This document shows, piece after piece, positions 1-59,934 of a stretch of DNA of 60,030 bases. Each line of letters starts with the position of its first letter. The stretch's first letter is position 1. The stretch lies in assembly GCF_003334405.1 (NCBI RefSeq), contig NZ_QOWM01000020.1. One strand, given 5' to 3'. The DNA comes from Escherichia coli (GTDB taxonomy: Bacteria > Pseudomonadota > Gammaproteobacteria > Enterobacterales > Enterobacteriaceae). The notes below the pieces were generated by a model, which was given only the letters and a program-made list of their open reading frames with translations, was not told the origin of the DNA and searched no databases. The position numbers and the translations under genes are program-made.

Positions 1-898
1 GTGGCTTGCGCAGTGCGGGCTGACGGTGGAGCAACTGGCCAGACAGGTGGAGCCGGAATACACACCGGCGCGAAAAGCTCATCTTTATCACTGCGACCAC
101 CGGGGACTGCCGCTGGCGCTTATCAGCGAAGACGGCAATACGGCGTGGAGCGCGGAATATGATGAATGGGGCAACCAGCTTAATGAGGAGAACCCGCATC
201 ATGTGTATCAGCCGTACCGTCTGCCAGGGCAGCAGCATGATGAGGAATCAGGGCTGTACTATAACCGTCACCGGTACTACGATCCGTTGCAGGGGCGGTA
301 TATTACTCAGGACCCGATGGGGTTGAAAGGGGGATGGAATTTATATCAGTATCCTTTAAATCCACTACAACAAATTGACCCTATGGGATTATTGCAGACT
401 TGGGATGATGCCAGATCTGGAGCATGTACGGGGGGAGTTTGTGGTGTTCTTTCACGTATAATAGGACCAAGTAAATTTGATAGTACTGCAGATGCTGCGT
501 TAGATGCTTTGAAAGAAACGCAGAATAGATCTCTATGTAATGATATGGAATACTCTGGTATTGTCTGTAAAGATACTAATGGAAAATATTTTGCATCTAA
601 GGCAGAAACTGATAATTTAAGAAAGGAGTCATATCCTCTGAAAAGAAAATGTCCCACAGGTACAGATAGAGTTGCTGCTTATCATACTCACGGTGCAGAT
701 AGTCATGGCGATTATGTTGATGAATTTTTTTCAAGTAGCGATAAAAATCTTGTAAGAAGTAAAGATAATAATCTTGAAGCATTTTATCTCGCAACACCTG
801 ATGGACGATTTGAGGCGCTTAATAATAAAGGAGAATATATTTTTATCAGAAATAGTGTCCCGGGATTGAGTTCAGTATGCATACCGTATCATGATTAA
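1..898 (+). CDS. rhsD: Rhs-family protein, 3' portion (gene continues upstream of window): conserved Rhs core end followed by a ~168-aa variable C-terminal toxin domain
   Basis: Frame is open to base 1. Translation carries the conserved Rhs core-end block ([13 protein letters not shown]...[13 protein letters not shown], PxxxxDPxGL hallmark) then unrelated tip sequence. Locus assignment to rhsD is by synteny with ybbC/selU/allS. Confidence 0.75.
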
Positions 899-937
899 TT
901 TTAGTGCTTTTATTAGTGGGGCCTATAAGGAGATTCA

Positions 938-1306
938 ATGAAATATAGTTCAATATTTTCGATGCTTTCATTTTTTATACTATTTGCCTGTAATGAGACA
1001 GCTGTTTACGGTTCTGATGAAAACATTATTTTTATGAGGTATGTGGAAAAATTACATTTAGATAAATACTCTGTTAAAAATACGGTAAAAACTGAAACAA
1101 TGGCGATACAATTAGCTGAAATATATGTTAGGTATCGCTATGGCGAACGGATTGCAGAAGAAGAAAAACCATATTTAATTACGGAACAACCAGATAGTTG
1201 GGTTGTTGAGGGAGCAAAGTTACCTTATGAAGTTGCGGGTGGTGTATTTATTATAGAAATTAATAAGAAAAATGGATGTGTTTTGAATTTCCTACATAGT
1301 AAATAA
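938..1306 (+). CDS. ybbC: Rhs-associated immunity protein (YbbC-like), 122 aa, N-terminal signal-peptide-like segment
   Basis: Small ORF immediately 3' of the Rhs tip, the typical toxin-immunity arrangement; hydrophobic N-terminus [10 protein letters not shown]. Confidence 0.65.
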
Positions 1307-2016
1307 TGCTGGCGCTGATGGATGCGGATGGAAACATTGCGTGGAGCGGGGAGTATGATGAGTGGGGCAACCAGCTGAATGAAGAGAACCCGCATCACCT
1401 GCACCAGCCGTACCGGCTGCCGGGGCAGCAGTATGATAAGGAGTCGGGGCTGTACTACAACCGGAACCGGTACTACGATCCGTTGCAGGGGCGGTATATC
1501 ACTCAGGACCCGATAGGGCTGGAGGGGGGATGGAGTCTGTATGCGTATCCGCTGAATCCGGTGAATGGTATTGATCCATTAGGGTTAAGTCCCGCAGATG
1601 TAGCGCTAATAAGAAGAAAAGATCAACTAAACCATCAAAGAGCATGGGATATATTATCTGATACTTATGAAGATATGAAGAGATTAAATTTAGGTGGGAC
1701 TGATCAATTTTTCCATTGTATGGCATTTTGTCGAGTGTCTAAATTAAATGACGCTGGTGTTAGCCGATCGGCGAAAGGGCTGGGTTATGAAAAAGAGATT
1801 AGAGATTACGGGTTAAATCTGTTCGGTATGTACGGCAGAAAAGTAAAGCTATCCCATTCTGAAATGATTGAAGATAATAAAAAAGACTTGGCTGTAAATG
1901 ACCATGGGTTGACATGTCCATCAACAACAGATTGCTCAGATAGATGTAGTGATTATATTAATCCAGAGCATAAAAAAACGATAAAGGCTTTACAAGATGC
2001 TGGCTATCTCAAGTAA
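1306..2016 (+). CDS. Orphan Rhs C-terminal fragment (YlbH-like): Rhs core-end remnant plus a different ~142-aa toxin tip
   Basis: Repeats the Rhs core-end block ([14 protein letters not shown]...[13 protein letters not shown]...[13 protein letters not shown]) at ~85% nucleotide identity to 128-360, then diverges. ATG overlaps the ybbC stop. Confidence 0.7.
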
Positions 2017-2026
2017 TCTATCAAAG

Positions 2027-2257
2027 ATGATAATATTTATTTTTGCTATTATAATCATTGTTGTTTTATGCGTAATTACTTATCTTTATTTATACAAAGA
2101 TGAATCTCTTGTAAGTAAACATTACATAAACTATATGGCAATACCAGAAAATGATGGAGTTTTTACATGGCTCCCAGATTTTTTTCCGCACGTAGCGGTG
2201 GATATATCAATATACACAAATGTAGAAGATGATTATTTTTTTCTTATTTTTCCCTAA
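2027..2257 (+). CDS. Putative immunity protein for the orphan Rhs tip (YbbD-like), small membrane protein
   Basis: ORF directly after the orphan tip; strongly hydrophobic N-terminus (MIIFIFAIIIIVVLCVITYLYLY). Alternative start at 1997. Confidence 0.5.
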   Translation: MIIFIFAIIIIVVLCVITYLYLYKDESLVSKHYINYMAIPENDGVFTWLPDFFPHVAVDISIYTNVEDDYFFLIFP

Positions 2258-2289
2258 CAAATGATGATGGGGGTAGGTTTAAGAAAACA

Positions 2290-2487
2290 TTGACAGTGAG
2301 GGCCAGGGAACAAGTGGCGAAAATCGTATCAAAGAATGATCCAGATACAAAAAAAGTGTGGTGTAAATATGGTAAGATACCAGGGCAAGGGGATGGTGTA
2401 AACCTTTTTTTTGTTGGTGAAATTAATGTTACGCATTATTTTATAACAAATATTGGAGCTGGATTGCCTGATGCTTGTGCAGAGTAA
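2290..2487 (+). CDS. Hypothetical small protein (65 aa), possibly a remnant of another immunity/orphan cassette
   Basis: ORF only; AT-rich Rhs-accessory context; no recognisable motif. Confidence 0.2.
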   Translation: MTVRAREQVAKIVSKNDPDTKKVWCKYGKIPGQGDGVNLFFVGEINVTHYFITNIGAGLPDACAE

Positions 2488-3001
2488 TTGCTTGAATTAA
2501 GAGTCTATCCCATATCGAAGTCGTCAACTTCGTAGTGAGGAAAAGTAAAATTCCTGACTGAGAAAAGACATGTCGGCTATTGTGTAAAGCCATATAGCTC
2601 AGACGATGAATATCTACTCGTATTCAGTTGTTTATTGAGGGTGAGTTCCGACCCTGAAACAACAAATAAAATGAACAGTCAGAGAGTTTACATAGAATTG
2701 CACTGGTCTTTTACGATATCTGACATTGTGTAATACATATTCAGCCATGCATTAATTAAAATGTTACGTGTTTAATGTGAGTCCCTATCTGAAAATAAAT
2801 AATCCTTCCGGATTAAAATAAATTCTTGCCGGGAAAGAAAGAGGAAATAAACCATTAGCGGAAAACCAGCGGCACGCCAGGGTGACATGCCCCAGTACGG
2901 CGGCCCGATAGTCCAGGGTTCAGCGGGGGTACTGATAGTCGCGCCGACTGCATCGAGAACTCCATACAACTTTTTACGGAACGTCACCTGATAAAATTTG
3001 T

Positions 3002-3409
3002 TCAGTATCGTCTTTTGAGATTCTCAAGGTTATGGAGTAACCAGACAGAACGGACACCACTGTCGGAGATAAAAACCCCCTGTTTACGCAGCTCGTTGCT
3101 GGCCCGGTGCTGACCATGTGTCGGGAAAGCGACGGCGTAATCAACAACAGCCTGTTCAGTTGCCTCATCGGTACGGTTCTTAAGGTTAGGAGCGCGGCGA
3201 CTACGATTAATCTGCGCATCCACACCGCCTTCAGCGACCAGTTCGCGGTAACGATAAAACGTATCACGCGAAACGCCCATGATTTTACAGGCTTTTGATA
3301 CGTTGCTGAGTTCTTCAGCCAGATTGAGCAAACCGGCTTTGTGTTTGATGACGGGATTGGCAGTATGAAGCATGAGAGTTACCTCTTGTTTTGGATAAGG
3401 ATTCGACAC
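3002..3409 (-). pseudogene. ylbG: Truncated transposase-like HTH protein fragment (YlbG-like), degenerate IS remnant
   Basis: 135-aa ORF with an N-terminal HTH resembling transposase N-termini (GVSRDTFYRYRELVAEGGVDA ... ELRKQGVFISDSGVRSVW); the reading frame breaks and continues in other frames (2772-3267), with no intact catalytic domain. Confidence 0.5.
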
Positions 3410-3488
3410 TCATATCAAAACCGGTAACTCTCAACCTTTCAAGGCCATGTGTCAGATCAAGTCGCGACTAATACAAATACGTCCCTCA

Positions 3489-4598
<1,110 letters not shown>

Positions 4599-16439: not shown

Positions 16440-16550
16440 TCATGCCGGATGCGGCATGAGTACCATATCCTTCCTGAAAATCGCGCAAATTCTATATATT
16501 GCAGAGATCATGTAGGCCTGATAAGCGAAGCGCATCAGGCAATGTTACAA
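16440..16550. repeat. REP (repetitive extragenic palindrome) elements
   Basis: REP-type palindromes (GCCGGATGCGGC; GTAGGCCTGATAAGCG...CGCATCAGGCA) between convergent glxK and allE. Confidence 0.7.
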
Positions 16551-16617
16551 AAAAAGCCACGGTATAAACCGTGGCAAAATCCAACATAGCTAAAAATAAT
16601 CAGGCGAGTGGTATGAC

Positions 16618-38095: not shown

Positions 38096-38172
38096 GCGCC
38101 CTTAGCTCAGTTGGATAGAGCAACGACCTTCTAAGTCGTGGGCCGCAGGTTCGAATCCTGCAGGGCGCGCCA
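38096..38172 (+). tRNA. argU: tRNA-Arg (anticodon UCU)
   Basis: 77-nt cloverleaf GCGCCCTTAGCTCAGTTGGATAGAGC...CTTCTAAGTCG...GGTTCGAATCCTGCAGGGCGCGCCA with anticodon loop cuUCUaa and encoded CCA. Confidence 0.9.
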
Positions 38173-59338: not shown

Positions 59339-59639
59339 TTATGTTGGCGTTTTCTATTCAGTATAGAAGTCGGAGCGGCTGGGCGAGATGCGGAAGTTCT
59401 GGAATGTTTCTTTTTTTTGGTGATGGTGAACTGATGGTGCCTGAAGCAATTTGGCTACTTTTGCAATGTGACAAGTTATGGCAGTGCTGACTGGTGGCGA
59501 AGAATTTTGACGATTGAGTCATGCAGAAAAAAACGGGTTCAGCTTCAGTTGATTAAATGAGGAGTGAGAAGTCCGAAACAGGACTCACTGTATAAATAAA
59601 CAGCTATTTTGTTGAGGAAGGGTAAGATAACGGCGGGTG

Positions 59640-59705
59640 CCTGAAGCTTTCCGGTTTCAGGTTTACTCTGAGGTCTGGAAAGATGAAGCCCCAGGAGATA
59701 TTTCT
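59640..59705 (-). ncRNA. sokE: Putative Sok-type antisense RNA (sokE), position approximate
   Basis: Inferred only from hok/sok architecture (antisense to the mok leader/start); no independent signal seen in the sequence. Confidence 0.2.
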
Positions 59706-59781
59706 ATCAACCCTGGGGCTGCCACTCCAAACCCGAACAATTTGGATGGTAGTCCCTTCTTCGCATGGAGGCAATATAAAC

Positions 59782-59934
59782 ATGCTGACGAAATATGCCC
59801 TTGCGGCAGTCATAGTGCTGTGTTTAACGGTGCTGGGATTTACGCTTCTGGTCGGAGACTCGCTGTGTGAGTTTACGGTGAAGGAACGTAATATTGAGTT
59901 TAAGGCTGTTCTCGCTTACGAACCGAAGAAGTAG
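59782..59934 (+). CDS. hokE: Hok-family type I toxin (small membrane peptide)
   Basis: 50-aa [53 protein letters not shown]; the in-frame upstream extension (59683) corresponds to the mok-like leader ORF. Confidence 0.85.

What the first reader, a model, noticed from the sequence alone, without database searches (positions are those of the whole stretch)
2257..3488. Decayed mobile-DNA remnant between the Rhs array and selU
An AT-rich, mostly non-coding stretch holds a 135-aa HTH/transposase-N-terminus-like ORF (3002-3409, minus strand) whose frame breaks and continues as scraps in other frames, with no intact catalytic domain. It looks like the scar of an IS or regulator gene that accompanied the Rhs accessory region.
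Basis: partly seen in the sequence, partly recalled or inferred. Interest (0 to 1): 0.3.

Follow-up and report, generated by a model that had tools for sequence, protein, structure and literature searches.

The report
Dead IS481 insertion-sequence stump (ylbG)
This is the already-annotated E. coli pseudogene ylbG, the broken left end of an IS481-family jumping gene that sits beside two other gene wrecks at the edge of the RhsD toxin island, so the finding is ordinary.

Summary

- **Source.** The window is a K-12-like E. coli chromosome with the gene order rhsD-ybbC-ylbH-ybbD-ylbI-ylbG-selU(mnmH)-allS.
- **Extent.** Only 2949-3475 (527 bp, minus strand) derives from an insertion sequence.
- **Content.** It holds the left inverted repeat (3450-3475), a 5' leader, and codons 1-122 of an IS481-family transposase (ylbG, 3373-3008). 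These are 96% nt and 92% aa identical to intact 345-347-aa transposases of a 1201-bp element. A 23-codon scrap (codons 277-299) follows in another frame (3017-2949).
- **Damage.** About 472 bp covering the whole rve/DDE catalytic core was lost at a 9-bp microhomology (3009-3017). The last 202 bp, including the right inverted repeat, are also gone.
- **Left junction.** At 2948|2949 the scrap is fused to the first 32 codons of a dead Rhs gene (ylbI).
- **Rest of the interval.** The remainder is a unique AT-rich spacer and the second half of a frameshifted ybbD.
- **Spread.** About 2,750-2,900 of 5,426 complete E. coli genomes carry the same remnant. None has an intact IS at this site.
- **Selection.** ylbG polymorphism looks neutral (pN/pS 0.92, against 0.12 for selU).

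Verdict: already known, low interest.

The parts
1997..2487 (+). ybbD, the putative immunity-type gene after the orphan Rhs C-terminal module. Here it is split into two ORFs (1997-2257 and 2290-2487) by loss of one T in a T-run near 2235.
   Evidence: NCBIfam NF011298 (163 positions) matches 1-85 in the first ORF and 99-163 in the second. Strains L014-L017 have one extra T after window 2235 and an intact 163-aa gene.
2488..2833 (.). AT-rich spacer (about 35% GC) with no recognisable coding remnant, found only at this locus. It is possibly the former upstream region of the truncated rhs gene. A published RpoD-holoenzyme binding site, TCGTCA-19-TAAAAT, lies at 2521-2551 (+).
   Evidence: Composition. 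It has no homologues apart from the same locus and no family hits for its short ORFs. The promoter string comes from PMC3946193 and was located in the sequence.
2834..2948 (+). Rhs N-terminal fragment (ylbI): 20 bp of upstream sequence plus codons 1-32 (the PAAR-like start). The start codon has changed from ATG to ATT at 2854.
   Evidence: 79% nt identity to the first 95 nt of rhsD. 75-82% identity to many 'RHS element core protein' gene starts. NCBIfam RHS_core positions 1-32, E=5e-12. RefSeq annotates it as a pseudogene missing its C-terminus.
2949..3017 (-). IS481-family transposase scrap, codons 277-299 (IS nt 931-999), in a different frame from ylbG.
   Evidence: tblastn 4e-09. blastn gives 81% identity to lineage A (L007/L008) and 94% to lineage B (L019). 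Matches genes annotated as integrase core domain (H75).
3009..3017 (-). Deletion junction. The 9 nt CAAAAGACG (read on the minus strand) align to both IS nt 459-467 and IS nt 931-939, so about 472 bp (codons 123-276, the rve core) are missing.
   Evidence: The two blastn alignments overlap here. A different IS fragment in UPEC132 is collinear with the intact IS across this point, so the deletion is specific to this locus.
3002..3373 (-). ylbG: transposase codons 1-122 (HTH_29/HTH_32 DNA-binding domain), then one out-of-frame codon and a stop at 3002-3004.
   Evidence: 92% aa and 96% nt identity to intact 345-347-aa IS481-family transposases. Pfam result, NCBIfam. RefSeq: 'ylbG, incomplete, missing C-terminus'.
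3374..3475 (-). IS 5' leader and left terminal inverted repeat. The IRL is 3450-3475 and reads TGTATTAGTCGCGACTTGATCTGACA on the minus strand. A stem, GAGAGTTACC/GGTAACTCTC (about 3376-3433), pairs with the Shine-Dalgarno region.
   Evidence: Aligned from IS nt 1 of the intact elements. The IRL/IRR pair is defined in L008. There is a single IRL copy and no IRR in the 60-kb window. Stem seen. A sub-threshold Rfam psRNA2 hit falls here and also at the left ends of intact ISs.
3476..3488 (.). 13 bp between the IS end and the selU stop codon. 3476-3481 (AAATAC) is absent from island-free strains. Homology to the core chromosome resumes at 3482-3487.
   Evidence: Comparison with strains that have an empty site or other cargo.
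3489..4583 (-). selU/mnmH (tRNA 2-selenouridine synthase). It is an intact core gene, co-directional with ylbG and immediately upstream of it.
   Evidence: No terminator-like site lies between its stop codon and ylbG.

Best explanation
The interval is a stack of three dead genes at the right-hand edge of the RhsD accessory island, which sits between ybbP and selU. It has no function as a mobile element.

**What is shown.** The IS-derived part (2949-3475, minus strand) is 44% of a 1201-bp IS481-family insertion sequence. It keeps the left inverted repeat, the leader and the DNA-binding N-terminal 122 codons (ylbG). It has lost the whole DDE/rve catalytic core through a roughly 472-bp deletion at a 9-bp microhomology. 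It has also lost the last 202 bp, including the right inverted repeat.

**What is inferred.** A second deletion fused transposase codon 299 to codon 32 of a convergent rhs gene (ylbI). That event probably removed the body of that rhs gene and the right end of the IS.

**Consequence.** With no catalytic domain and only one end, the element can neither transpose nor be mobilised as a unit. The wreck arose once. It is inherited with the island in about half of E. coli, and ylbG now drifts neutrally.
For: 1. RefSeq context and pseudogene flags for ybbD, ylbI and ylbG.
2. ylbG matches the IS481 transposase profile at positions 2-112 of 284 and carries HTH_29/HTH_32 only.
3. Intact relatives have 345-347 aa with rve at 162-267 and rve_3 at 256-326.
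4. The window aligns to IS nt 1-467 (96%) and nt 931-999, with a 9-nt overlap, and to nothing else.
5. The IRL is present once and the IRR is absent from the window.
6. The Rhs fragment abuts the scrap exactly at 2948|2949.
7. The island borders are defined by an empty-site strain and two strains with other cargo.
8. 2,904 of 5,426 genomes have the IS end next to selU, and 2,753 have the Rhs|IS junction region at 99% identity or more.
9. A synthetic query of the selU end joined to the full IS found 73 genomes with a full-length IS, none of them joined to selU.
10. Across 7 alleles, ylbG has 6 nonsynonymous and 2 synonymous polymorphisms (pN/pS 0.92). selU has 21 and 53 (0.12) and allS scores 0.01; Fisher p=0.014.
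11. One strain has a frameshifted ylbG cut by IS3, and another has an IS1-mediated deletion next to it.
12. dN/dS against intact transposases is 0.65-0.76.
Against: - The 122-codon ORF is still open in 6 of the 7 alleles examined.
- It retains a plausible Shine-Dalgarno sequence and start codon.
- It lies co-directionally 116 bp downstream of selU with no predicted terminator in between, so transcription, and possibly some translation, cannot be excluded.
- The selection test rests on only 8 polymorphisms.
- The order of the two deletions, and whether one or two IS copies were involved, is inferred rather than shown.
Confidence: 0.93

Rival explanations
1. YlbG is a functional short HTH protein. 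It would be a domesticated transposase DNA-binding domain acting as a transcriptional regulator or as a trans-inhibitor of IS481-family transposition, by analogy with IS1 InsA, IS911 OrfA or the Tn5 inhibitor.
For: - The ORF is open in most alleles, with an intact HTH_29/HTH_32 domain.
- The cognate IRL sequence is retained.
- It could be transcribed by read-through from selU.
Against: - pN/pS is 0.92 against 0.12 for the neighbouring selU.
- Frameshifted and truncated alleles exist.
- The ORF ends in out-of-frame junction sequence.
- It is absent from about half of E. coli genomes.
- Only 73 of 5,426 genomes carry an intact IS that it could regulate.
- RefSeq flags it as a pseudogene.
- The 5' leader stem pairs with the Shine-Dalgarno region.
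- The ybbD-ylbG interval is routinely used as a neutral landing pad (PMC2847246; bioRxiv 10.1101/2020.01.04.894907).
Confidence: 0.04
2. The segment 3376-3547 (+) encodes a small RNA of the Rfam psRNA2 family, antisense to the selU 3' end and the ylbG leader.
For: cmscan hit to RF02349 psRNA2, 31.1 bits, E=2.5e-05 over model positions 1-201.
Against: - The score is less than half the gathering threshold (65 bits).
- Only the part inside the IS leader and IRL (3376-3475) aligns with high posterior probability.
- The same sub-threshold hit (33-43 bits) occurs at the left end of intact IS copies on unrelated plasmids. It therefore reflects the IS terminus, not a locus-specific sRNA.
- Nothing reaches gathering score here in the whole-window scan.
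Confidence: 0.02
3. This rival concerns history only. The remnant would not be one IS with an internal deletion. It would be the fusion of two different IS481-family copies lying in the same orientation, with the N-terminal part from a lineage-A-like copy and the scrap from a lineage-B-like copy. The deletion would then have removed the rest of both copies and anything between them.
For: - Piece 1 (3009-3475) is 96% identical to lineage A and 86% to lineage B.
- The scrap (2949-3017) is 81% identical to lineage A and 94% to lineage B.
- The mismatch rates against lineage A differ between the two pieces (21/467 against 13/69, Fisher p=9e-5).
Against: - The two lineages are themselves mosaic. 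Their first 170 nt or so are nearly identical while the rest is about 86-88% identical, so a single recombinant parental IS explains the pattern equally well.
- The scrap is only 69 nt long.
- No genome preserving a two-copy ancestor was found.
Confidence: 0.3

Closest known systems
ylbG (b0502) pseudogene of E. coli K-12, with its neighbours ylbI and ybbD in the RhsD element
   Same: It is the same locus. The sequence is 100% identical to K-12-derived genomes, in the same gene order rhsD-ybbC-ylbH-ybbD-ylbI-ylbG-mnmH. RefSeq annotates ylbG as 'helix-turn-helix domain-containing protein, incomplete, missing C-terminus'.
   Different: Nothing differs. This analysis only adds detail: the IS481-family assignment, the IRL, the 472-bp microhomology deletion, the exact fusion to Rhs codon 32, and the chimeric lineage pattern.
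IS481-family insertion sequences, here an unnamed 1201-bp Escherichia element with 26-bp imperfect inverted repeats and a 345-347-aa HTH+rve transposase (examples: E. albertii plasmid NZ_CP117662.1 and E. coli plasmid NZ_OY856300.1)
   Same: The left inverted repeat, leader and first 122 codons are 96% identical. A further 23 codons are 94% identical to a second lineage.
   Different: The remnant lacks codons 123-276 (rve core), codons 300-346 and the right inverted repeat. No target-site duplication can be identified. It is not a transposable unit.
N-terminal DNA-binding transposase derivatives that inhibit transposition (IS1 InsA, IS911 OrfA, Tn5 Inh). This comparison is from general knowledge and was not tested here.
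   Same: YlbG would consist of the DNA-binding domain alone, without the catalytic domain, and its cognate end sequence is adjacent.
   Different: Those proteins are encoded by intact elements and are conserved. ylbG is a deletion product that evolves neutrally in genomes that mostly lack any intact partner IS.

Membership tests
IS481 family insertion sequence | A single transposase with an N-terminal HTH and a match to the IS481 transposase profile | tested here: met
   NF033577 transpos_IS481 at profile positions 2-112 of 284, E=2.8e-25. The 89 bits fall below the 224-bit cut-off because the protein is truncated. Pfam HTH_29/HTH_32 also match. Identity is 92% to proteins annotated as IS481 family transposase.
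IS481 family insertion sequence | A DDE (rve / integrase-core) catalytic domain | tested here: not met
   Intact relatives have rve at 162-267 and rve_3 at 256-326. The window keeps only codons 1-122 and 277-299. It is therefore a fragment derived from the family, not a functional member.
IS481 family insertion sequence | Two terminal inverted repeats (TGT...ACA) | tested here: not met
   The IRL is present at 3450-3475 and identical to that of the intact elements. No IRR is found anywhere in the 60-kb window at 3 mismatches or fewer, and no inverted partner lies in 2200-3560.
IS481 family insertion sequence | Target-site duplication flanking the element | not testable with these tools
   The right end has been deleted, so no second flank exists. 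Only 6 bp (AAATAC, 3476-3481) separate the IRL from the core flank.
Rhs / RHS element core protein (for the 2854-2948 fragment) | The conserved N-terminal PAAR-like start followed by the YD-repeat core and a C-terminal toxin | tested here: not met
   Only profile positions 1-32 of 1261 are present (NF041261, E=5e-12). The start codon is mutated to ATT, and homology stops at 2948. It is a fragment only.
Stand-alone HTH transcriptional regulator | A complete protein with full-length homologues of the same size that are under purifying selection | tested here: not met
   Homologues that are not copies of this same locus are 345-347-aa transposases. pN/pS is 0.92. Frameshifted alleles exist.
Rfam RF02349 psRNA2 | A score at or above the family gathering threshold (65 bits) | tested here: not met
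   31.1 bits. The hit is reproduced at the left ends of intact ISs elsewhere.

The most novel reading that the evidence does not exclude
The YlbG HTH fragment would be expressed from selU read-through transcripts. It would bind IS481-family left ends and act as a host-retained trans-repressor, helping to keep this IS rare in E. coli (intact copies in only 73 of 5,426 genomes).
Probability: 0.03. Interest if true: 0.35.

Novelty: already known. Interest (0 to 1): 0.07.

Why it matters
It matters little for biology. It is a textbook case of IS decay and of deletions shaping the edge of an Rhs accessory island.

The practical value is for annotation:
[quoted passage not shown] It should be read as the stump of an IS481-family transposase.
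- The sub-threshold psRNA2 hit should be read as a feature of the IS terminus.
- The ybbD-ylbG interval, widely used as a neutral landing pad in K-12, is indeed made only of pseudogene debris.

Tried and rejected
- **Flanking inverted repeats or target duplications.** Only the IRL exists. There is no IRR and no direct repeats of note.
- **An intact IS at the same site.** A synthetic query of the selU end joined to the full IS found none in 5,426 genomes.
- **Coding or homologous content in the AT-rich spacer 2488-2833.** Its short ORFs hit no NCBIfam family. It has no DNA homologues in E. coli genomes or plasmids apart from the same locus.
- **An sRNA gene.** The psRNA2 hit is below threshold and is a feature of the IS end. 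The whole-window gathering scan found nothing in the interval.
- **Promoter and terminator scan of 2200-3700.** The number of sites is no higher than in shuffled sequence.
- **The Rhs|IS junction in one genome per species (GTDB representatives).** The only hit was an E. coli contig mis-binned into an 'Alistipes' metagenome-assembled genome, so it says nothing about age.
- **Folding energy of the leader.** The Shine-Dalgarno-sequestering stem forms in the minimum-free-energy structure, but the z-score is only -1.5.
- **The IS fragment near cnf1 in UPEC132.** It was checked as a possible copy of the same deleted element. It is collinear with the intact IS and unrelated to this deletion.

Full report
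**Where we are.** The interval 2257-3488 is 100% identical to K-12-type E. coli chromosomes. It matches at 80% coverage or better in 2,709 of 5,426 complete genomes. RefSeq annotation of an identical genome gives the gene order: rhsD, ybbC, an orphan Rhs C-terminal pseudogene, two 'hypothetical' ORFs, a 96-nt pseudogene, ylbG ('helix-turn-helix domain-containing protein; incomplete; missing C-terminus'), then mnmH/selU, allS and allA. The object is therefore the known K-12 pseudogene cluster ybbD-ylbI-ylbG.

**Checking the observation.**
- The 135-aa ORF at 3002-3409 (-) exists.
- It carries Pfam HTH_29 (E=3.7e-20) and HTH_32.
- It matches the NCBIfam IS481 transposase model only over positions 2-112 of 284. 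The score is 89 bits against a 224-bit cut-off, which is what a truncated protein gives.
- GC content is 35-38% from 2250 to 2850 but 46-53% from 2850 to 3450. The 'AT-rich' label therefore fits only the left half.

**Anatomy of the IS remnant.** A tblastn search of plasmids found intact 'IS481 family transposase' genes of 345-347 aa that are 92% identical to the ORF. In one of them (L008), 26-nt imperfect inverted repeats, TGTATTAGTCGCGACTTGATCTGACA and its partner, delimit a 1201-bp element. Its transposase has HTH_29 at 11-74, HTH_32 at 38-111, rve at 162-267 and rve_3 at 256-326. Aligning these elements to the window gives exactly two collinear pieces on the minus strand.
- IS nt 1-467 aligns to window 3475-3009 at 96% identity. 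This piece holds the IRL, the leader and codons 1-122.
- IS nt 931-999 aligns to window 3017-2949. This piece holds codons 277-299 in another frame.
- The two alignments overlap by 9 nt (CAAAAGACG, 3009-3017). About 472 bp were therefore lost at a short microhomology, including the whole rve core. By my reading of the conserved motifs, which is an inference, this takes out all three DDE residues.
- IS nt 1000-1201, including the right inverted repeat, are absent.
- The IRL occurs once in the 60-kb window. The IRR does not occur at all with 3 mismatches or fewer.
- No other terminal repeat or target duplication is present.
- The real start is probably the ATG at 3373, as in the intact genes, not the GTG at 3409.
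- A leader stem (GAGAGTTACC/GGTAACTCTC) that pairs with the Shine-Dalgarno region is conserved in the intact copies.

**What the rest of the interval is.**
- Immediately left of the scrap, 2854-2948 (+) encodes ISGKPAARQGDMPQYGGPIVQGSAGVLIVAPT. This is 79% identical in nucleotides to codons 1-32 of rhsD, with ATG changed to ATT. It hits NCBIfam RHS_core positions 1-32 (E=5e-12). It also matches the starts of many Rhs genes at 75-82% identity.
- Rhs homology ends at 2948 and IS homology ends at 2949. The two are joined without filler, inside both genes. The join is therefore a deletion junction, not a transposition junction. The rhs fragment and the transposase are convergent, so the simplest inference is that a deletion removed the rhs gene body together with the right end of the IS.
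- 2488-2833 is a spacer found only at this locus, with no family hits. A published in vitro RpoD-holoenzyme site, 'TCGTCA-19-TAAAAT', listed between ybbD and ylbI (PMC3946193), maps to 2521-2551 (+).
- 2290-2487 is the C-terminal half of ybbD, and 1997-2257 is its N-terminal half (NF011298). Strains with an intact 163-aa ybbD have one more T after window position 2235.

**Relation to the island.**
- selU is present in 5,407 of 5,426 genomes, but only 2,904 have the IS end beside it.
- In the other genomes homology stops at window 3482-3498, and the ybbP-selU gap holds something else. It holds only REP-like sequence in CUVET19-1704, a dinQ-like type I toxin in HS, and an extended Hcp (tssD) with three DUF2931 genes in R14.
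- The RhsD island thus runs from just after the ybbP stop to window position 3481, and the IS stump is its last element.

**Is it ever intact at this site?** A synthetic query of 150 nt of the selU end joined to the complete IS found 73 genomes with a full-length IS. A different fragment near cnf1 in UPEC132 is collinear with the intact IS and does not share the deletion. The Rhs|IS junction region is present at 99% identity or more in about 2,750 genomes, which points to a single origin.

**Selection.** Across seven alleles from diverse strains:

| Gene | Nonsynonymous | Synonymous | pN/pS |
|---|---|---|---|
| ylbG | 6 | 2 | 0.92 |
| selU | 21 | 53 | 0.12 |
| allS | 1 | 25 | 0.01 |

- The ylbG and selU counts differ with Fisher p=0.014.
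- dN/dS against the intact transposases is 0.65-0.76.
- SRY206 has a frameshifted ylbG truncated by IS3, and GF124.3 has an IS1-associated deletion next to it.
- Synonymous diversity in ylbG (0.023) is about nine times lower than in selU (0.21). The non-coding spacer is similarly uniform. This fits a single, relatively recent common origin of the island rather than constraint.

**A small twist.** The N-terminal piece is 96% identical to IS lineage A (L007/L008) and 86% to lineage B (L019). The scrap shows the reverse, 81% to A and 94% to B (Fisher p=9e-5 for the contrast against lineage A). Either the parental IS was a mosaic, or two copies were fused by the deletion. The two lineages are themselves mosaic, being nearly identical over their first 170 nt or so, so I cannot decide between these.

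**The sRNA lead.** A sub-threshold Rfam psRNA2 hit (31 bits against a gathering score of 65) at 3376-3547 (+) aligns well only inside the IS leader and IRL. It recurs at the left ends of intact IS copies on unrelated plasmids. It is a property of the IS terminus. Nothing in the interval reaches a gathering score.

[quoted passage not shown] The ybbD-ylbG interval is used as a neutral chromosomal landing pad (PMC2847246; bioRxiv 10.1101/2020.01.04.894907). I found no paper that assigns ylbG a function.

**Verdict.** The remnant occupies 2949-3475 only, it belongs by descent to the IS481 family, and its neighbours are a 32-codon Rhs start and a frameshifted ybbD. It is a non-functional relic that is already annotated. 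The only reading with any novelty is a retained HTH fragment acting as a trans-inhibitor, and the neutral substitution pattern disfavours it.

Noticed in passing
window 2229-2240 (T-run); ybbD 1997-2487: K-12 and O157:H7 alleles lack one T after window position 2235 relative to strains EC571, STEC2018-607, E118 and WP2-W18. This splits the 163-aa ybbD into two ORFs.
   Followed up: yes
ybbP-selU intergenic site: island right border at window 3482 (its left border lies upstream of the window); L010, L011, L012: The ybbP-selU gap is a variable cargo site. It holds REP-type repeats only in CUVET19-1704, a dinQ-like type I toxin locus in strain HS, an extended Hcp/TssD (667 aa) with three DUF2931 genes in R14, and the RhsD island in K-12.
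   Followed up: partly
window 3376-3475; L007 2298-2498; L008 2318-2498: Rfam psRNA2 (RF02349) gives sub-threshold hits (31-43 bits) precisely on the left end of IS481-family elements. This suggests the family model overlaps an IS terminus or leader.
   Followed up: partly
L007 3574-3696 (plasmid CP099096.1): A strong isrC match (150 bits against a gathering score of 39) lies directly after the IS481-family transposase gene, where the right inverted repeat would be expected. No IRR was found in this copy.
   Followed up: no
L018 (CASFSC010000074.1, 'uncultured Alistipes sp.' MAG): This 3,995-bp contig is 99.6% identical to window 127-4122. It is an E. coli contig mis-binned into a Bacteroidota metagenome-assembled genome.
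   Followed up: yes
PLSDB records NZ_CP069916.1 (K. oxytoca, 19 kb), NZ_OL790696.1 (4.8 Mb), CP099174.1 (1.3 Mb): These 'plasmid' records carry the E. coli chromosomal ylbI-ylbG segment at 100% identity. They are probably chromosome fragments or contamination filed as plasmids.
   Followed up: no
L006 3001-3036 (E. coli MRSN346647, between yfdG and intS): A 36-bp exact copy of the IS left end (window 3440-3475) stands alone next to a prophage integrase. It may be a solo IS-end scar.
   Followed up: no
window 2488-3475 compared with 3489-4583: Synonymous diversity in ylbG (0.023), and overall diversity in the island's right end, are well below the synonymous diversity of the adjacent core gene selU (0.21) across the same strains. 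This implies a single, relatively recent origin or spread of the island.
   Followed up: partly
window 16477-16611, 38096-38169, 59635-59790: The rest of the window holds ES036 and STnc480 sRNA matches, one tRNA, and a sok antitoxin RNA above gathering thresholds. None is related to the finding.
   Followed up: no
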